IMG/VR virus record: IMGVR_UViG_2563366931_000002 | DNA from: a virus | Taxonomy: Duplodnaviria; Heunggongvirae; Uroviricota; Caudoviricetes | Length of the DNA stretch: 14,469 nt | Reading direction: 5' to 3' (one strand) | Shown: one piece after another, positions 4,622 through 14,469 of the stretch | Layout of the letters: each line of letters opens with the position of its first letter | How positions within the stretch are numbered: position 1 is the first letter of the stretch | Program-made: the position numbers and the translations under genes | The notes under the pieces: model-generated | What the model was told of the DNA's origin: nothing | Seen by the model: the letters and a program-made list of their open reading frames with translations, nothing else | Database searches by the model: none

Positions 4622-7600
4622 ATGGGTAAAGGCAGCAGTAAGGGGCATACTCCGCGCGAAGCGAAGGACAACCTGAAGTCCACGCAGTTGCTGAGTGTGA
4701 TCGATGCCATCAGCGAAGGGCCGGTTGAAGGTCCGGTGGATGGATTAAAAAGCGTGCTGCTGAACAGTACGCCAGTGCTGGACAGTGAGGGGAATACCAA
4801 TATCTCCGGCGTCACGGTGGTGTTCCGGGCCGGTGAGCAGGAGCAGACACCGCCGGAGGGATTTGAATCCTCCGGCTCCGAGACGGTGCTGGGTACGGAA
4901 GTGAAATACGACACGCCGATCACCCGGACCATCACGTCGGCAAACATTGACCGACTGCGTTTTACCTTCGGCGTGCAGGCACTGGTGGAAACCACCTCAA
5001 AGGGGGACAGGAATCCGTCGGAAGTCCGCCTGCTGGTTCAGATCCAGCGTAATGGTGGCTGGGTGACGGAAAAAGACATCACCATTAAGGGCAAAACCAC
5101 CTCGCAGTATCTGGCCTCGGTGGTGGTGGGTAACCTGCCGCCGCGCCCGTTCAATATCCGGATGCGCAGGATGACGCCGGACAGCACCACAGACCAGCTG
5201 CAGAACAAAACGCTCTGGTCGTCATACACCGAAATCATCGATGTGAAACAGGGCTACCCGAACACGGCACTGGTCGGCGTGCAGGTGGATTCGGAGCAGT
5301 TCGGCAGCCAGCAGGTGAGCCGTAATTATCATCTGCGCGGGCGCATTCTGCAGGTGCCGTCGAACTATAACCCGCAGACGCGGCAATACAGCGGTATCTG
5401 GGACGGAACGTTTAAACCGGCATACAGCAACAACATGGCCTGGTGTCTGTGGGATATGCTGACCCATCCGCGCTACGGCATGGGGAAACGTCTTGGTGCG
5501 GCGGATGTGGATAAATGGGCGCTGTATGTCATCGGCCAGTACTGCGACCAGTCAGTGCCGGACGGCTTTGGCGGCACGGAGCCGCGCATCACCTGTAATG
5601 CGTACCTGACCACACAGCGCAAGGCGTGGGATGTGCTCAGTGATTTCTGCTCGGCGATGCGCTGTATGCCGGTATGGAACGGGCAGACGCTGACGTTCGT
5701 GCAGGACCGACCATCAGATAAGGTGTGGACCTATAACCGCAGTAATGTGGTGATGCCGGATGATGGCGCGCCGTTCCGCTACAGCTTCAGCGCCCTGAAG
5801 GACCGCCATAATGCCGTTGAGGTGAACTGGATTGACCCGAATAACGGCTGGGAGACGGCGACAGAGCTTGTGGAGGACACGCAGGCCATTGCCCGTTACG
5901 GTCGTAACGTCACGAAGATGGATGCCTTTGGCTGTACCAGCCGGGGGCAGGCACATCGCGCCGGGCTGTGGCTGATTAAAACAGAACTGCTGGAAACGCA
6001 GACCGTGGACTTCAGCGTGGGCGCAGAAGGGCTTCGCCATGTGCCGGGCGATGTCATTGAAATCTGTGATGATGACTATGCCGGTATCAGCATCGGCGGG
6101 CGCGTGCTGGCGGTAAACAGCCAGACCCGGACGCTGACGCTCGACCGTGAAATCACGCTGCCATCCTCCGGTACCACGCTGATAAGCCTGGTTGACGGAA
6201 GTGGCAATCCGGTCAGCGTGGAGGTTCAGTCCGTCACCGACGGCGTGAAGGTGAAAGTGAGCCGTGTTCCTGACGGCGTTGCTGAATACAGCGTGTGGGG
6301 GCTGAAGCTGCCGACGCTGCGCCAGCGCCTGTTCCGCTGCGTGAGTATCCGTGAGAACGACGACGGCACGTATGCCATCACCGCCGTGCAGCATGTACCG
6401 GAAAAAGAAGCCATCGTGGATAACGGGGCGCACTTTGACGGCGACCAGAGCGGCACGGTGAATGGTGTCACGCCGCCAGCGGTGCAGCACCTGACTGCCG
6501 AAGTCACCGCAGACAGCGGGGAATATCAGGTGCTGGCGCGCTGGGACACGCCGAAGGTGGTGAAGGGTGTGAGCTTTATGCTTCGCCTGACCGTAACAGC
6601 GGATGACGGCAGTGAGCGGCTGGTCAGCACGGCCCGGACGATGGAAACCACTTACCGCTTCACACAACTGGCGCTGGGGAACTACAGGCTGACAGTCCGG
6701 GCAGTAAATGCGTGGGGGCAGCAGGGCGATCCGGCGTCGGTATCGTTCCGGATTGCCGCACCGGCAGCGCCGTCGCGGATTGAGCTGACGCCGGGCTATT
6801 TTCAGATAACCGCCACGCCGCATCTTGCGGTTTATGATCCGACGGTACAGTTTGAGTTCTGGTTCTCGGAAAAGCGGATTGCGGATATCAGGCAGGTTGA
6901 AACCACAGCACGCTATCTTGGCACGGCGCTGTACTGGATAGCCGCCAGTATCAATATCAAACCGGGCCATGATTATTACTTTTATATCCGCAGTGTGAAC
7001 ACCGTTGGCAAATCGGCATTCGTGGAGGCTGTCGGTCAGCCGAGTGATGATGCATCAGGCTATCTGGATTTTTTCAAAGGAGAAATCGGGAAAACACATC
7101 TGGCCCAGGAGCTGTGGACGCAGATTGATAACGGTCAGCTTGCGCCTGACCTGGCTGAAATCAGGACGTCCATTACGGATGTCAGCAATGAAATCACACA
7201 GACCGTCAATAAGAAACTGGAAGACCAGAGTGCAGCGATCCAGCAGATACAGAAAGTTCAGGTTGATACAAATAATAACCTGAACAGCATGTGGGCTGTG
7301 AAGCTGCAGCAGATGCAGGACGGACGCCTTTATATTGCGGGTATCGGTGCCGGTATTGAGAACACCCCTGACGGCATGCAGAGTCAGGTGCTGCTGGCGG
7401 CAGACAGGATTGCGATGATTAATCCTGCGAATGGCAACACAAAACCGATGTTTGTTGGTCAGGGCGATCAGATATTCATGAACGACGTGTTCCTGAAACG
7501 CCTGACGGCCCCCACCATTACCAGCGGTGGAAATCCACCGGCATTTTCCCTGACACCGGACGGAAAGCTGACCGCTAAAAATGCGGATATCAGTGGCAGT

Positions 7601-8119
7601 GTGAATGCGAACGCCGGGACGCTCAACAATGTCACGGTAAATGAAAACTGTACGATTAAGGGCATGCTGGAGGCGACTCAGGTCAGAGGTGACTTCGTTA
7701 AAGCTGTATCCAAATCATTCCCGAAACAGGCTGGTACGTGGGGTAATACGGAAACACCAAACGGGACGGTTACAGTCACCATCAGCGATGATCATAACTT
7801 TGACCGTCAAATCATTATTCCGCCCATTATCTTTAACGGAATAGCGTATAGCGATCCGGGAAGTGGTAATAACCCGGGAGGTACAAGATACACGGGTTAT
7901 GGTTTTGAAGTTCGCAAAAACGGTGTATTAATCGCATCCAGAGAAACTAAAGGGGCCATTCCCGGTAGCTACAGTGCGGTTATTGATATGCCGAGTGGCA
8001 GGGGAAGCGTCACTCTGGAGTTTAAGATTTTCCAGAAAGGCAATCAGGGCGCAGGTAACATCACAGACTGTACGGTGATTGTGACCAAAAAAGCTGCTTC
8101 CGGTATCAGTATCCGTTGA
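4622..8119 (+). CDS. J: Host specificity protein J (central tail fibre / tail tip), lambda gpJ-like, 1165 aa
   Basis: Very long ORF downstream of I, with a GAGG Shine-Dalgarno 5 bp upstream. The N-terminus ([29 protein letters not shown]...) and most of the body match lambda gpJ as I recall it. It is about 30 codons longer than lambda J, and the 3' end drifts to lower GC. Confidence 0.92.
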
Positions 8120-8140
8120 AATATTTATAACCCCAATACG

Positions 8141-8164
8141 GGCGCCAGAAATGGCGCCTTTTTT
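8141..8164 (+). terminator. Rho-independent terminator downstream of J (GGCGCC-AGAAAT-GGCGCC stem-loop plus TTTTTT)
   Basis: Perfect 6-bp GC stem with a 6-nt loop at 8141..8158, immediately followed by a T6 run, 22 bp after the J stop and just before the fibre gene. Confidence 0.6.
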
Positions 8165-8179
8165 ATTTGTGGAGTGAGT

Positions 8180-10549
8180 ATGGCAGTACAGATTTCAGGT
8201 GTGCTGAAAGATGGTGCGGGAAAACCAATACAGAACTGCACTATTCAACTGAAGGCAAAGCGTAACAGCACCACGGTACTGGTGAACACGGTGGCCTCTG
8301 AAAATCCGGATGAAGCCGGGCGTTACAGCATGGATGTTGAGTATGGCCAGTACAGCGTTATCCTGCTTGTTGAAGGTTTTCCGCCTTCACATGCCGGAAC
8401 CATTACCGTCTATGAAGGTTCCAGACCAGGTACGCTGAATGATTTTCTCGGTGCCATGACGGAAGATGATGTCATGCCGGAAGCATTGCGTCGTTTTGAG
8501 GAAATGGTGGAAGAAGCGGCACGCAACGCCGAAGCCGCCTCTCAGAGCGCAGCGGCGGCAAAGAAATCCGAAACTGCAGCGGCATCATCGAAGAACGCGG
8601 CGAAAACCTCAGAAACGAATGCAGCTAATAGTGCACAGGCGGCAGCGACCTCAAAGACTGCATCGGCAAACTCCGCGACAGCAGCCAAAAAATCAGAAAC
8701 CAACGCGAAAAACAGCGAGACAGCCGCAAAGACGAGCGAAACCAACGCAAAGTCCAGCCAGACGGCAGCGAAAACCAGCGAAACGAATGCCAAAGCCAGT
8801 GAAACTGCGGCAAAAAACAGCCAGGTTGCAGCAGCCCAAAGCGAGAGCGCGGCAGCCGGTTCTGCGACTTCAGCAGCTGGATCAGCAACTGCTGCGGCTA
8901 ACAGCCAGAAAGCTGCGAAGACGAGTGAAACTAACGCAAAGTCCAGCCAGACGGCAGCGAAGACCAGCGAAACGAATGCCAAAGCCAGCGAAACTGCGGC
9001 GAAAAACAGCCAGGATGCAGCAGCCCAAAGCGAGAGTGCCGCAGCTGGTTCTGCAAGTGCGGCGGCTTCTTCTGCCACTGCATCAGCCAACAGTCAAAAA
9101 GCAGCAAAAACCAGTGAAACCAACACAAAGGCGAGCGAGACTGCGGCGACTAACTCGGCGAAAGCATCCGCTGCAAGCCAGATGGCTGCAAAAGCAAGTG
9201 AAGACGCAGCCAGGGAGTACGCAAGCCAGGCAGCTGAGCCGTATAAACAAGTTTTGCAGCCGTTGCCTGATGTGTGGATACCGTTTAATGACTCGATGGA
9301 TATGATTACAGGATTTGGCCCGGGATATAAAAAAATAACAGTGCGCGATGATGTGGTCACTATACCATCCGACAAAATTGTCCCGTTTTCCCGCGCGAGT
9401 TCCGCGACCTATATCAATAAGTCCGGCGCTCTTACCATTGCAGAAATTAATGAGCCACGTTTTGAAAAAGAAGGGCTGTTAATTGAAGGGCAGAGAACAA
9501 ATTACTTCACAAACTCAAACGCTCCGGAATTGTGGAATAAAAATCCAGGCCTGAAGATAAGCGAGACAAAAACCGATTCCAGGGGTTTTAAATATGCAAC
9601 GTTTACCCCAGAAAAATATTTAGATAGTTCTGGCTCATATGGAATTATATCAGGGGCAGCAGCAAATAAGATAGCGGTAGTCAAAAATGATGCAGTTACA
9701 ATATCCTTTAGAGCAAAAGGGGATAATGTAAGATTTGCGGCTAGATTTGATAAAGGGGATTCGCCAGTTGCTGTAGCTGCCATTTTTATTGATAGCGCCA
9801 CACTAGATACATTCACGTCTGGAGCAGATGCGTCTAATATTGCTGTGAAAAATGTTGTTCGTGACGGTGAGTGGGTTGCTGTAGAGGCTGTTTATAAAGT
9901 AACAGACGACTCTACATATATTAACGGCGCCATTCTGATGTCAAACAAACTGGGTGCTAATTTTGATAAGACTAGTTTTATGGATGTAACCACCCCTCAA
10001 ATAGAGCTAGGTTCTTGCTTATCATCATTTATTGTCACACCAGGTGTTCCTGCGACAAGGGCGAGTGATATGGTTATTTTTTCAACCAGAAATAACATAA
10101 GTTCTGTCCCTTTAAGCTGTCTTGTTGAAATACATAAAAATTGGGACTCTACGCCAAATCAGGCCCCACGAATTTTAACCACTATTGGCGTGGCGACTAA
10201 TGATGAACAACTGGTATTGGCTTTCAGGACGCCTACAAGTCCGGATGTAGAACCTTTACCTTATGTTCAGTTTGGAGTGAGATCTGCATATCTTAGTCCA
10301 TCTGTGAAGGCCGGGCGCAAAATGATTGCTGGTTTTGTCTGTAATAGCTCGACTGAATTTCGTTGCTGTTGTAATGGTTACCTGTCACCTGTTCAGACTT
10401 CGTCATGGAAGAATACCGGAGCTGCACATGAAATACGTATTGGGGGAACTTCTGCTGGAGGAGAACGTCACTTGTTTGGTCACGTTCGTAACCTGAGAAT
10501 ATGGCATAAAGAATTAACTGATGCGCAAATGGGGGAGAGTATTAAATGA
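8180..10549 (+). CDS. stf: Side tail fibre protein (Stf-like), mosaic: conserved lambda-Stf-like N-terminal domain, Ala/Ser/Thr-rich repeat shaft, low-GC C-terminal domain (possibly ConA/LamG-like lectin fold). The ORF track starts at GTG 8174; the ATG at 8180 with GGAG 5 bp upstream is the more likely start.
   Basis: The N-terminus from the ATG (MAVQISGVLKDGAGKPIQNCTIQLKAKRNSTTV...GRYSMDVEYGQYSVIL) closely resembles the lambda Stf N-terminus as I recall it. The central region has KTSETNAK / AAKNSQ repeats. The 3' half falls to roughly 40% GC. The C-terminal motif (HLFGHVRNLRIWHKELTDAQM) resembles the end of LamG-like jellyroll domains; this is inference. Confidence 0.8.
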   Translation: MAVQISGVLKDGAGKPIQNCTIQLKAKRNSTTVLVNTVASENPDEAGRYSMDVEYGQYSVILLVEGFPPSHAGTITVYEGSRPGTLNDFLGAMTEDDVMPEALRRFEEMVEEAARNAEAASQSAAAAKKSETAAASSKNAAKTSETNAANSAQAAATSKTASANSATAAKKSETNAKNSETAAKTSETNAKSSQTAAKTSETNAKASETAAKNSQVAAAQSESAAAGSATSAAGSATAAANSQKAAKTSETNAKSSQTAAKTSETNAKASETAAKNSQDAAAQSESAAAGSASAAASSATASANSQKAAKTSETNTKASETAATNSAKASAASQMAAKASEDAAREYASQAAEPYKQVLQPLPDVWIPFNDSMDMITGFGPGYKKITVRDDVVTIPSDKIVPFSRASSATYINKSGALTIAEINEPRFEKEGLLIEGQRTNYFTNSNAPELWNKNPGLKISETKTDSRGFKYATFTPEKYLDSSGSYGIISGAAANKIAVVKNDAVTISFRAKGDNVRFAARFDKGDSPVAVAAIFIDSATLDTFTSGADASNIAVKNVVRDGEWVAVEAVYKVTDDSTYINGAILMSNKLGANFDKTSFMDVTTPQIELGSCLSSFIVTPGVPATRASDMVIFSTRNNISSVPLSCLVEIHKNWDSTPNQAPRILTTIGVATNDEQLVLAFRTPTSPDVEPLPYVQFGVRSAYLSPSVKAGRKMIAGFVCNSSTEFRCCCNGYLSPVQTSSWKNTGAAHEIRIGGTSAGGERHLFGHVRNLRIWHKELTDAQMGESIK
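8727..8865 (+). repeat. Intragenic direct repeat copy A (139 bp) within the fibre shaft; repeat period 189 bp (63 codons)
   Basis: Aligned by eye to 8916..9054 with about 10 mismatches in 139 bp. It encodes AKTSETNAKSSQTAAKTSETNAKASETAAKNSQ.AAAQSESAAAGSA. Confidence 0.85.
8916..9054 (+). repeat. Intragenic direct repeat copy B (139 bp) within the fibre shaft; more diverged partial copies flank it
   Basis: Near-identical to 8727..8865 at nucleotide level. Flanking sequence (about 8560..8726 and 9055..9180) contains degenerate versions of the same unit. Confidence 0.85.
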
Positions 10550-10827
10550 AAGATTTAACACTCAAATTTGCAGACAGGGCCGACTTTTCGGCCTTTATGG
10601 AGAGCATTGGCTATTATGATGACGAGTTGATGCAGGATGATATTCTTATTGACGTGATAGGTAACGTGTACAAAGAAACCGGAGAACTGACTGAAGATGG
10701 CGAACCGGTATGTGTTAAGGAAGACGGATATTTTGTAAACGTGCGCATCATTAATGATGCAAAAAAATCGTCAATATTCGATGAATACGCGGTTGTTGTT
10801 GAACATCAACTTCGTGGCTGGATGTGA
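10546..10827 (+). CDS. Hypothetical small acidic protein (93 aa), translationally coupled to the fibre gene; function unknown
   Basis: The ATG overlaps the fibre stop (ATGA) and has a GGGGGAG Shine-Dalgarno-like sequence about 8 bp upstream. Low GC like the fibre 3' half. No motif I recognise. Confidence 0.5.
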   Translation: MKDLTLKFADRADFSAFMESIGYYDDELMQDDILIDVIGNVYKETGELTEDGEPVCVKEDGYFVNVRIINDAKKSSIFDEYAVVVEHQLRGWM

Positions 10828-10836
10828 GGGAGACAA

Positions 10837-11541
10837 ATGGCTACATCGACAGTAATTCCGGGAGACATCACCACGCTGAAGGGAGATGTCAGTAAAGCGA
10901 AGGAAGATATTTCCTCAATTAACAGTAAAGTATCAACGCTTCAGACTGATATGACCAGTGCAAAGCAGGATATCAGCTCCAGATACACAAAAACTGAAGT
11001 TGATAATAAGCTGAAAAACAAAGTGGAAGTGAACGATCTGGAAAGTGGTCGTTATGGCGGAGATTTTTATCCACTGACAGGTCGTGAAGCGTTTTATTTA
11101 TGGAATTTGGCCACGACTACAGCGGCGGCAAACCTTTATCTTAATCCTGACCCTGCAATTTCGTCTGTACTGCGGTCAACATCGTCTATCCGCTATAAGC
11201 ATTCAGTAGAGACGATAGATTCAGAGCACGCCGATCTCATTTTCAGGATGCGCCCTGTATGGTACAGGTCACAATGCGAAAATGACAGGCGTGACTGGGG
11301 ATTCTACGGATTGATTGCCGAGGAAGTAGGAGAAATTGCCCCTCAGTTTGTACACTGGCGATCAGCTAACGAAGATGATGCACGGGAAGCTATTTCCAGC
11401 AATGGCCTTGTTGCCGAAGGTGTAATGTACGAACGTCTGGTTGTTCCACTGATTCACCATATCCAGAAACTGACCGAAAGAGTTGATGAACTTGAGTCAG
11501 AATTGAAGTTGTTATCAACTTCCCGAAGCGATATCGGATAA
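10837..11541 (+). CDS. Short tail-fibre-like protein: N-terminal coiled coil plus C-terminal intramolecular-chaperone (peptidase S74-like) domain, 234 aa
   Basis: GAGGGAG Shine-Dalgarno upstream of the ATG. The N-terminal roughly 70 aa have heptad-like Ser/Thr/Lys/Asp periodicity. The C-terminus carries motifs typical of fibre/endosialidase C-terminal chaperone domains: SSIRYKHSVETID (Ser-x4-Lys), MRPVWYR, GLIAEEVGEIAPQFV, GVMYERLVVPLIHHIQKLTERVDELE. Confidence 0.7.
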   Translation: MATSTVIPGDITTLKGDVSKAKEDISSINSKVSTLQTDMTSAKQDISSRYTKTEVDNKLKNKVEVNDLESGRYGGDFYPLTGREAFYLWNLATTTAAANLYLNPDPAISSVLRSTSSIRYKHSVETIDSEHADLIFRMRPVWYRSQCENDRRDWGFYGLIAEEVGEIAPQFVHWRSANEDDAREAISSNGLVAEGVMYERLVVPLIHHIQKLTERVDELESELKLLSTSRSDIG

Positions 11542-11551
11542 AGGAGGAGTA

Positions 11552-11845
11552 ATGGATATAACACCTTTTCTTCATGCGCTTTGTGCTGTGGCTGCGCAGG
11601 TACTGATTGGTCTTTTTACCGGAAACTGGGTTTACGGGGCGATAGCCGGTTGTACGTTCTTCATTGCGCGTGAACACACCCAGGCAGAATATCGCTGGAT
11701 TGAAATGTTCGGGCATGGCAAGCGAATGAATATGCCGTGGTGGGGCGGTTTTGATTCGCGCGCATGGGATGTGGCAAGCCTGATGGATTTTGCTGTGCCG
11801 GTGGTGGCGTGTCTGCTGGTCTGGCTGTTGGTTAATCGTGGGTGA
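11552..11845 (+). CDS. Hypothetical small membrane protein (97 aa, 2-3 predicted transmembrane helices), last gene of the co-directional tail-region cluster
   Basis: Strong AGGAGG Shine-Dalgarno 6 bp upstream of the ATG. Hydrophobic stretches FLHALCAVAAQVLIGLF, VYGAIAGCTFFIA and LMDFAVPVVACLLVWLLV. No family recognised. Confidence 0.55.
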   Translation: MDITPFLHALCAVAAQVLIGLFTGNWVYGAIAGCTFFIAREHTQAEYRWIEMFGHGKRMNMPWWGGFDSRAWDVASLMDFAVPVVACLLVWLLVNRG

Positions 11846-12192: not shown

Positions 12193-13218
<1,026 letters not shown>

Positions 13219-13225
13219 TCAGGGA

Positions 13226-13241
13226 CTTGTTCGCACCTTCC
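13226..13241. repeat. IS5 terminal inverted repeat (transposase-proximal end)
   Basis: CTTGTTCGCACCTTCC read directly; reverse complement GGAAGGTGCGAACAAG. Confidence 0.9.
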
Positions 13242-13245
13242 TTAT

Positions 13246-13719
13246 GCTTTTGCGCCCCAAAAGGTTGTTTAGATGTATTTTATCAATTGATTTTCAATAT
13301 CGTTTAATAAAGAAAAATTAAGCAAGCTGGATGTTGGTTTTTTGTTAATTGGATGGTTCTAATAATGTTTTTTTACTGTTGTTGAATGTGACTTGATAAG
13401 AAATGCAAGTAAAAATGATACTCTTTTTATTTTAAATTCAAACGGTTGACATATATATAGCAAGAGGTTTCAGGTGCGTTGTAGTGAGTTTATGTTAATA
13501 AAAAGTATAGTAAGCGTTGAAAAATGTAACTTTGAAATACGTTAGAATAAAAAACAATATACATATAATAATTTAATCTTAAATGAAATTTATTAAAATT
13601 TGCAAACTATAATTTTGTGTATAAAAATATAAATGCACATCATCCTGATTATGATTGTGTATTTAATTGGTTGTTATTTGACTGCTATCAACTTGTTTTA
13701 ATTTTATGATAGGTGCAAG
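13246..13719 (+). promoter_or_regulatory. Strongly AT-rich intergenic region upstream of the AraC-family gene; likely promoter / nucleoid-protein (H-NS-type) silencing region
   Basis: About 470 bp of roughly 25-30% GC DNA with many -35/-10-like hexamers (for example TTGACA at 13446..13451, TATAAT at 13564..13569). An AGGTG Shine-Dalgarno lies just upstream of the ATG at 13720. The exact promoter cannot be resolved by eye. Confidence 0.4.
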
Positions 13720-14469
13720 ATGGATTATGTTTGCTCCGTAGTTTTCATCTGTCAATCATTTGATTTAATTATAAACAGGAGAGTTATCTCGTTCAAAAAA
13801 AATTCATTGTTTATTGTAAGCGACAAAATTAGAAGGGAGTTACCAGTATGCCCCTCTAAACTAAGAATTGTTGATATAGATAAGAAAACATGTTTATCCT
13901 TTTTTATCGACGTGAATAATGAGCTGCCTGGCAAATTTACTCTTGATAAGAATGGCTATATTGCTGAAGAGGAACCTCCATTATCGCTTGTTTTTTCTCT
14001 GTTTGAAGGGATTAAAATAGCAGACTCACACTCCCTTTGGTTAAAAGAAAGACTATGTATATCCTTACTTGCCATGTTCAAAAAACGCGAAAGTGTAAAT
14101 TCTTTTATACTAACAAATATAAATACATTCACCTGTAAAATTACTGGAATAATCAGTTTTAATATTGAGCGGCAATGGCATTTAAAAGATATTGCGGAAT
14201 TGATTTATACGAGTGAAAGTTTAATAAAAAAAAGATTAAGGGATGAAGGAACGTCATTTACTGAAATATTGAGAGATACTAGGATGAGGTATGCAAAAAA
14301 ACTCATAACTTCAAACTCTTATTCTATCAATGTCGTAGCCCAGAAATGTGGCTATAACAGTACTTCATATTTCATATGTGCATTTAAAGATTATTATGGT
14401 GTCACGCCATCTCATTATTTTGAGAAAATAATCGGCGTCACAGATGGAATAAACAAAACAATTGACTGA
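13720..14469 (+). CDS. appY: AraC/XylS-family transcriptional activator, AppY-like (249 aa), prophage cargo
   Basis: 249-aa ORF with a C-terminal AraC-type helix-turn-helix ([44 protein letters not shown] ... [31 protein letters not shown]). Very AT-rich codon usage. Length, N-terminus ([14 protein letters not shown]...) and prophage-end context match E. coli AppY as I recall it. Confidence 0.7.

What the first reader, a model, noticed from the sequence alone, without database searches (positions are those of the whole stretch)
7150..8119. 3' end of J drifts to lower GC: probable divergent receptor-binding region
GC in 60-bp samples falls from about 55% in the J body to about 42-47% in the last few hundred bases (for example 7801..7920). 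From memory of lambda J, the protein also departs from it in parts of this region, and the ORF is about 30 codons longer. The C-terminal part of gpJ determines receptor specificity (LamB in lambda), so this prophage probably uses a different outer-membrane receptor.
Basis: partly seen in the sequence, partly recalled or inferred. Interest (0 to 1): 0.4.

Follow-up and report, generated by a model that had tools for sequence, protein, structure and literature searches.

The report
Mosaic J tail-tip gene, 434-type receptor domain
The tail-tip gene J of this E. coli prophage is lambda-like for its first 800 codons but ends in the receptor-binding module of phage 434, which uses the porin OmpC instead of lambda's LamB; this is a common and already described kind of module swap, so the finding is correct but ordinary.

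Summary
The GC drop is real, with three corrections. The J body is 60% GC, not 55%. Lambda, 434 and ev099 J change composition at the same gene position, so over half of the drop is shared with lambda J.

J (4622-8119, 1165 aa) is a four-part mosaic:
- aa 1-803: 98% identical to lambda J.
- aa 804-949 (helical shaft and upper fibre): about 52% identical to both lambda and 434. It holds 28 of the 33 extra codons.
- aa 950-997: a conserved junction.
- aa 998-1165 (receptor-binding domain): 42% identical to lambda with 17 gap columns, but 93% and gap-free to 434 J.

Published work shows that 434 J confers OmpC dependence. The window and 434 domains differ mostly at synonymous sites (dN/dS 0.09), which argues for conserved function.

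This was inferred, not tested.

The same J occurs in sequenced phages (ev099, cdtI, Ayreon). Its receptor module is in 39% of complete E. coli genomes. Modular exchange of this region is already published. Low interest.

The parts
4622..8119 (+). J gene (central tail fibre / tip attachment protein J), 1165 aa, intact ORF
   Evidence: ORF list and translation. Pfam finds Phage-tail_3, FNIII-A_GpJ, Ig_J, Ig_J_second, Phage_Tail_Tip and Ig_GpJ_C. A 100% identical locus is annotated gpJ.
4622..7029 (+). Lambda-like module: hub domains and the two FNIII/Ig domains (aa 1-803). The shared GC change point at 6796 lies inside it.
   Evidence: 98% aa identity to lambda and 99% to 434 over aa 1-805. The last long run identical to lambda ends at 7029. 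GC is 0.600 up to 6781 and 0.518 for 6782-7036, and lambda does the same.
7030..7468 (+). Variant module: alpha-helical shaft plus upper central straight fibre (aa 804-949). It includes 28 extra residues (about 7127-7219) relative to lambda and 434.
   Evidence: 52-53% aa identity to lambda and 434 with 28 gap columns; 100% to ev099. It covers the gap between Pfam Ig_J_second (ends aa 818) and Phage_Tail_Tip (starts aa 872). The inserted part shows a 3-4 hydrophobic spacing (L844, I847, I851, V854, I858, V862, L865) read from the sequence printed, and a/d occupancy of 0.75. A low-confidence AF2 model places helices at aa 811-821, 826-836 and 843-877.
7469..7612 (+). Conserved junction in the lower central straight fibre (aa 950-997); probable recombination linker between modules
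   Evidence: Three runs identical to lambda (7469-7497, 7499-7527, 7544-7612). 96% aa identity to lambda over aa 951-1005. It corresponds to lambda aa 964, which was chosen as the chimera junction in PMC11338833.
7613..8116 (+). Receptor-binding module of the 434 type (aa 998-1165; Pfam Ig_GpJ_C covers aa 1029-1164)
   Evidence: Over aa 1006-1165: 42% identical to lambda (17 gap columns), 93% to 434 (0 gaps), 97% to ev099, 46% to A8 gpJ (PDB 9wca). GC 0.469 and GC3 0.47. dN/dS against 434 is 0.086 with dS 0.42.
8140..8169 (+). Terminator-like hairpin and T-run directly after J; stf follows at 8180 with no lom gene between
   Evidence: Terminator scan. Alignment to 434 shows that the ~670-bp lom cassette is absent.

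Best explanation
J of this prophage is a recombinant built from exchangeable modules.
- The N-terminal 803 residues (tail-tip hub and two FNIII/Ig domains) are the lambda version.
- Residues 804-949 (helical shaft and upper fibre) are a 'long' allele with four extra heptads.
- Residues 950-997 are a conserved stretch that serves as a homologous-recombination linker.
- Residues 998-1165 are the phage 434 version of the Ig-like receptor-binding domain.

By analogy with the solved lambda gpJ-LamB complex, a trimer of this domain would insert its four bottom loops into a trimeric porin. All four loops are remodelled by indels relative to lambda. The porin is most likely OmpC, as for 434. Binding would then be relayed up the fibre to open the tail tip.

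The GC decline has two components. One is a drop at gene nt 2175 that all lambda-type J genes share. The other is the lower synonymous-site GC of the swapped-in modules, which have separate evolutionary histories.

Shown: the mosaic structure, the breakpoints, the composition and the allele identities. Inferred: OmpC as receptor and the mechanics of the longer shaft.
For: - Segment identities and breakpoints.
- Same six-domain Pfam architecture as gpJ, including Ig_GpJ_C.
- Homology to solved lambda gpJ and A8 gpJ chains, E 1e-113 to 5e-121.
- 434 J confers OmpC use: PMC11101478 and PMC3509688.
- Gap-free 93% identity to the 434 receptor domain, with dN/dS 0.086 at dS 0.42, indicating long purifying selection on the protein.
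- dS of the receptor domain is three times that of the J body (0.42 vs 0.14), so the histories differ.
- Receptor-domain alleles in phage records fall into discrete classes. 74 records are at least 90% identical and all the rest are below 60%.
- All four combinations of long or short shaft with 434-type or other receptor domain exist: Kati and Stx2_EH2201 (long + 434-type), 434 (short + 434-type), PhiR55_1 and PhiR57_1 (long + other), lambda (short + lambda-type).
- GC3 falls from 0.74 to 0.47, so the drop lies at synonymous sites and is not only amino-acid composition.
- Modularity of residues 960-1132 is published in PMC6646904.
- Context: a 100% identical tail region in strain CFSAN061770 belongs to a full-length lambdoid prophage that carries a porin gene between Q and the lysis genes.
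Against: - No adsorption or host-range data exist for this allele.
- None of the phages with this exact J (ev099, cdtI, Ayreon, phi458) had a receptor assignment in the papers I could search.
- The window differs from 434 at 11 residues of aa 1006-1165. About seven of them (Q1036, A1037, N1047, S1077, I1136, Q1138, G1143) lie near the four loop/indel hot spots (lambda 1012, 1048, 1077, 1107).
- In lambda a handful of substitutions in this region switch use to OmpF (PMC6646904), so a shift of receptor or of OmpC-allele range cannot be excluded.
- The structural model was of low confidence (pLDDT 44).
Confidence: 0.78

Rival explanations
1. The receptor-binding domain is of the 434 family, but its loop substitutions have moved it to another receptor, for example OmpF, the prophage-type porin NmpC/Lc, or only certain OmpC alleles.
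For: There are 11 substitutions against 434 in aa 1006-1165, about seven of them near the four loop hot spots (with hot spots from PMC6646904). Two OmpC-binding gpJ chimeras, A8 and 1A2, differ in which OmpC alleles they accept (PMC11338833).
Against: dN/dS is 0.086 over a synonymous divergence of 0.42. There are no indels against 434, whereas receptor-class differences go with indels at all four loops.
Confidence: 0.15
2. The GC drift is a compositional property of the J gene itself (protein composition, or the start of the lower-GC half of lambdoid genomes) and says nothing about module exchange or receptor.
For: The change point at 6796 lies in lambda-identical sequence, and lambda J has its change point at the same place (0.593 to 0.532). 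GC stays low in stf downstream (0.476).
Against: The drop is nearly twice as large as in lambda (0.106 vs 0.061). The excess maps to the swapped modules. GC3 of the receptor domain is 0.47 here and 0.49 in 434, against 0.61 in lambda. dS also differs between modules. This rival is partly true, for the 6796-7029 stretch, but does not account for the rest.
Confidence: 0.1
3. The prophage is defective and J is a relic, so no receptor is in use.
For: The window carries an IS (transposase ORF 12193-13209) and a tail-fibre-assembly pseudogene near appY. The site is that of the defective DLP12 prophage of K-12.
Against: J and all tail genes H-M-L-K-I-J-stf are intact ORFs. The identical locus in CFSAN061770 belongs to a prophage with a full set of integrase, recombination, repressor, replication, Q, lysis, terminase, head and tail genes. 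dN/dS shows constraint. The IS lies outside the tail genes.
Confidence: 0.1

Closest known systems
Phage 434 J (central tail fibre; OmpC-dependent), also carried by lambda h434 hybrids
   Same: Hub and FNIII region 99% identical. Receptor-binding domain (aa 1006-1165) 93% identical without gaps. Same terminator after J.
   Different: The shaft and upper-fibre module (aa 804-949) is only 53% identical and 28 residues longer here. There are 11 substitutions in the receptor domain, several near the loops. 434 has lom after J and the window does not.
Phage lambda J (LamB-dependent; PDB 8IYK, 8XCJ, 8XCK)
   Same: Same gene order and same six Pfam domains. aa 1-803 are 98% identical and the junction aa 951-1005 is 96% identical.
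   Different: The receptor-binding domain is 42% identical, with indels at all four loop hot spots. The shaft is 28 residues shorter in lambda. GC3 of the receptor domain is 0.61 in lambda against 0.47 here.
J of sequenced phages ev099, cdtI, Ayreon, phi458, Kati, mEp332, PhiR34_1
   Same: Full-length nucleotide matches of 95-98% with the same module combination, long shaft plus 434-type receptor domain. The cdtI receptor domain is 99.4% identical.
   Different: Only point differences. I found no published receptor assignment for any of them.
A8 gpJ chimera (engineered OmpC-binding lambda gpJ; PDB 9wca/9wcb; PMC11338833)
   Same: An OmpC-directed receptor domain grafted onto lambda J at the same conserved junction (lambda aa 964). 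It is the best PDB sequence match (E 5e-121).
   Different: Only 46% identical in the receptor domain, so it is a different OmpC-binding class. It has the short lambda shaft.

Membership tests
Lambda-type tip attachment protein J (central tail fibre) | Domain architecture: hub (Phage-tail_3), FNIII-A, two Ig/FNIII domains, tail-tip fibre, C-terminal Ig receptor-binding domain | tested here: met
   All six Pfam families are above their cut-offs and in the expected order.
Lambda-type tip attachment protein J (central tail fibre) | Position at the end of the H-M-L-K-I-J tail gene block | tested here: met
   ORF order in the window and annotation of a 100% identical locus.
Lambda-type tip attachment protein J (central tail fibre) | Forms the trimeric tail tip and central fibre of the virion | not testable with these tools
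   Inferred from 98% identity to lambda J over aa 1-803 and matches to solved chains.
434-type (OmpC-dependent) J receptor-binding domain | Close, collinear sequence match to the 434 J C-terminal domain | tested here: met
   149/160 identical (93%), 0 gaps. Alleles of at least 90% identity form a class separate from all others, which are below 60%.
434-type (OmpC-dependent) J receptor-binding domain | Protein sequence conserved by selection relative to 434 | tested here: met
   dN/dS 0.086 at dS 0.42.
434-type (OmpC-dependent) J receptor-binding domain | Adsorption or infection requires OmpC | not testable with these tools
   Known for 434 J from the literature; no data for this allele.
Lambda LamB-type J receptor-binding domain | High identity to lambda J over the C-terminal ~150 residues | tested here: not met
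   39% identity with 17 gap columns over aa 1029-1164.
FhuA-dependent lambdoid tail tip (HK022 / phi80 type) | C-terminal end of the J-like protein resembles that of HK022 | tested here: not met
   Only the fibre region aligns (38% over 104 aa). Nothing aligns to the receptor domain. That HK022 uses FhuA is from my own knowledge.
FhuA-dependent lambdoid tail tip (HK022 / phi80 type) | cor exclusion gene downstream of J | tested here: not met
   No Cor-annotated gene between J and appY in the identical annotated locus. HK022 has one.

The most novel reading that the evidence does not exclude
The 'long' helical-shaft allele may matter in its own right. It has 28 extra residues (four heptads) with a Gly/Pro break at aa 838-842. 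It reassorts independently of the receptor domain, and it is the majority form in E. coli: 3562 of 5426 complete genomes carry it, so lambda's solved short shaft is the less typical version. This segment sits just before the stretch that switches from helix to strand when lambda's tail opens. The long allele could therefore change the stand-off distance or the triggering threshold of the tail tip, for example to match O-antigen or capsule thickness. Its indels were noted in 2018 as unexplained.
Probability: 0.2. Interest if true: 0.35.

Novelty: already known. Interest (0 to 1): 0.15.

Why it matters
It predicts that this widespread prophage type adsorbs through OmpC rather than LamB. That matters for predicting host range, superinfection patterns and the usefulness of this J as a delivery-vector part. 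The principle (an exchangeable C-terminal specificity module in J) and this very allele are already in the literature and databases, so it adds an annotation rather than a discovery. One modest gap remains: the PDB copy searched holds no solved structure of a 434-type receptor domain, and the function of the variable-length shaft is unstudied.

Tried and rejected
- I looked for published receptor assignments for phages carrying this exact J (ev099, cdtI, Ayreon, phi458, mEp and PhiR phages). None was found.
- I checked whether the OmpC-binding chimeras A8 and 1A2 of PMC11338833 carry this receptor domain. They do not. The sequences read from the supplement and the PDB chain show different classes, with A8 46% identical.
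- A single-sequence AlphaFold2 model of aa 800-1165 was of low confidence (pLDDT 44). I used it only for secondary structure and ran no fold search.
- I rejected the idea that the extra ~30 codons lie in the receptor domain: 28 are in the shaft.
- I rejected a FhuA-type tail tip.
- I did not run the large protein-database searches, because the phage and E. coli genome collections already answered the question.

Full report
**Context.** The window is E. coli chromosomal DNA. It carries the tail end of a lambdoid prophage: tape-measure gene H (partial), M, L, K, I, J, a side tail fibre gene and small fibre-associated ORFs. Host genes start with appY. 49 complete genomes match at least 80% of the window; the listed top matches are 100% identical over 92% of it, and the missing 8% is an insertion sequence present only in the window. 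In one such genome (CFSAN061770) the same tail region belongs to a full-length lambdoid prophage at the tRNA-Arg/intD site. That prophage has recombination, repressor, replication, Q, lysis, terminase, head and tail genes, and a porin gene between Q and the lysis genes.

**The observation.** J runs from 4622 to 8119 (1165 aa).
The example 7801-7920 is 0.433.
- A single change point fits best at 6796, with LLR 18.7 against a maximum of 8.7 in 500 block shuffles.
- Lambda J, 434 J and ev099 J all have their best change point at the same gene position, nt 2175. Their drops are 0.593 to 0.532, 0.595 to 0.501 and 0.604 to 0.494.
- The stretch 6782-7036 is 96-98% identical to lambda and already down to 0.518.
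- More than half of the drift is therefore shared with lambda J, and the rest is allele-specific.
- Third-position GC falls from 0.74 (body) to 0.60, 0.57, 0.64 and then 0.47 in the last 495 nt. In lambda the last part is 0.61 and in 434 it is 0.49. The effect is thus at synonymous sites and not just protein composition.

**Anatomy.** I aligned J with lambda J (1132 aa), 434 J (1137 aa) and ev099 J (1165 aa). Four segments emerge:

| Segment | Window nt | aa | Identity |
|---|---|---|---|
| Hub and FNIII/Ig domains | 4622-7029 | 1-803 | 98% lambda, 99% 434 |
| Shaft and upper fibre | 7030-7468 | 804-949 | 52-53% lambda and 434, 28 gap columns; 100% ev099 |
| Conserved junction | 7469-7612 | 950-997 | 96% lambda |
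| Receptor-binding domain | 7613-8116 | 998-1165 | 42% lambda (17 gap columns), 93% 434 (0 gaps), 97% ev099 |

Pfam finds the full gpJ architecture: FNIII-A_GpJ 86-207, Phage-tail_3 330-496, Ig_J 610-714, Ig_J_second 716-818, Phage_Tail_Tip 872-1000 and Ig_GpJ_C 1029-1164.

The published lambda structure names these parts hub domains, FNIII-1 and FNIII-2, alpha-helical shaft, central straight fibre and receptor-binding domain (PMC11101478). In it, four bottom loops of the receptor-binding domain insert into LamB.

The first diverged block starts exactly at the end of FNIII-2 and covers the shaft. It holds 28 of the 33 extra codons. The inserted residues show a 3-4 hydrophobic spacing, read from the sequence printed, after a Gly/Pro break at aa 838-842. 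A low-confidence AF2 model puts helices at aa 811-821, 826-836 and 843-877.

The gaps against lambda in the receptor domain fall at the four indel hot spots that PMC6646904 proposed as surface loops: lambda 1012, 1048, 1077 and 1107.

**What the receptor domain is.** Two papers state that putting the 434 J gene into lambda makes the phage use OmpC, the 434 receptor, and that the C-terminus of J sets specificity. Several results tie the window's domain to the 434 class:
- Against 434 the window's domain has 37.5 synonymous and 13.5 non-synonymous differences (dS 0.42, dN 0.036, dN/dS 0.086). In the J body dS is only 0.14. The two alleles are old lineages whose protein has been held constant, and the domain has a history separate from the body.
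- In the phage collection, 74 records carry a domain at least 90% identical. All others are below 60%. They fall in steps at about 46, 43, 41, 39 (lambda) and 38%, which suggests discrete specificity classes.
- The best PDB matches are the engineered OmpC-binding 'A8 gpJ 713' (9wca) and lambda gpJ. A8 is only 46% identical in this domain, so it is a different OmpC class. No 434-type domain has been solved.
- The J-like protein of HK022, a FhuA phage (my own knowledge), aligns only in the fibre (38% over 104 aa) and not in the receptor domain. No cor gene follows J here.

**Module exchange.**
- The long shaft allele is at least 95% identical in 65 phage records, while lambda and 434 have the short one at 44-45%.
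- All four combinations of shaft and receptor domain exist: long with 434-type (Kati, Stx2_EH2201), short with 434-type (434), long with another class (PhiR55_1, PhiR57_1), and short with lambda-type (lambda).
- The junction between the two modules is the conserved island. [quoted passage not shown]
- PMC6646904 had already concluded that residues 960-1132 are an independently recombining module. It also noted unexplained indel peaks upstream, which probably correspond to the shaft indel seen here.

**How common it is.** The whole gene matches phages ev099 (98.1%), cdtI (97.0%), Ayreon, phi458, Kati, PhiR34_1 and mEp332 along its full length. The receptor module is found in 2092 of 5426 complete E. 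coli genomes and the long shaft module in 3562.

**Interpretation and limits.** The best estimate is OmpC. This is an inference from homology.
- 11 residues differ from 434 in aa 1006-1165, and about seven lie near the loop hot spots.
- Related OmpC-binding gpJ variants differ in which OmpC alleles they accept.
- A shift in allele range is therefore plausible, and a shift of receptor cannot be excluded.
- I found no receptor assignment for any phage with this exact J.
- From my own knowledge, the lambdoid phage PA-2 uses OmpC and carries the lc porin gene at the position where the related prophage has its porin gene. That fits the OmpC reading but was not tested here.

**Verdict.** Interest is low.

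Noticed in passing
window 8120-8180: There is no lom gene between J and the side tail fibre gene. The window aligns to the 434 J end plus terminator and then jumps to the lom-stf intergenic region. The ~670-bp lom cassette of lambda, 434 and ev099 is missing, and one terminator-like hairpin (8140-8159 plus T-run) remains.
   Followed up: partly
window 12193-13209 (- strand), about 12.0-13.2 kb: A 338-aa DDE transposase ORF (Pfam DDE_Tnp_1 and DUF772), probably an IS5-family element. It sits between the tail-fibre-assembly pseudogene and appY. It is absent from the otherwise 100% identical loci listed among the best-matching E. coli genomes.
   Followed up: partly
L005 (NZ_CP023142.1 3693793-3694875), outside the window: The full prophage that shares this tail region carries a porin gene annotated ompC between the Q antiterminator and the lysis genes. 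This is the nmpC/lc position of DLP12 and PA-2 (my own knowledge). A phage-borne porin next to an OmpC-type J suggests receptor down-regulation as superinfection exclusion.
   Followed up: no
window 8180-11845: The side tail fibre region comprises a 789-aa Stf (phage_tail_N, weak Laminin_G_3 at the C-terminus), a 93-aa ORF, a 234-aa ORF with a Peptidase_S74 (intramolecular chaperone) domain and a 97-aa ORF. GC falls to 0.39-0.45 from about 9300 on, a second and deeper compositional drop than the one in J.
   Followed up: no
window 7030-7468: The long helical-shaft allele of J (28 extra residues) is present in 3562 of 5426 complete E. coli genomes, so lambda's short shaft is not the usual form. 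More distant relatives of this segment (33-35% identical, and longer) occur in Ralstonia phages.
   Followed up: partly
window 13200-14469: A very AT-rich stretch (GC 0.24-0.34) surrounds and includes appY, in sharp contrast to the prophage tail genes.
   Followed up: no
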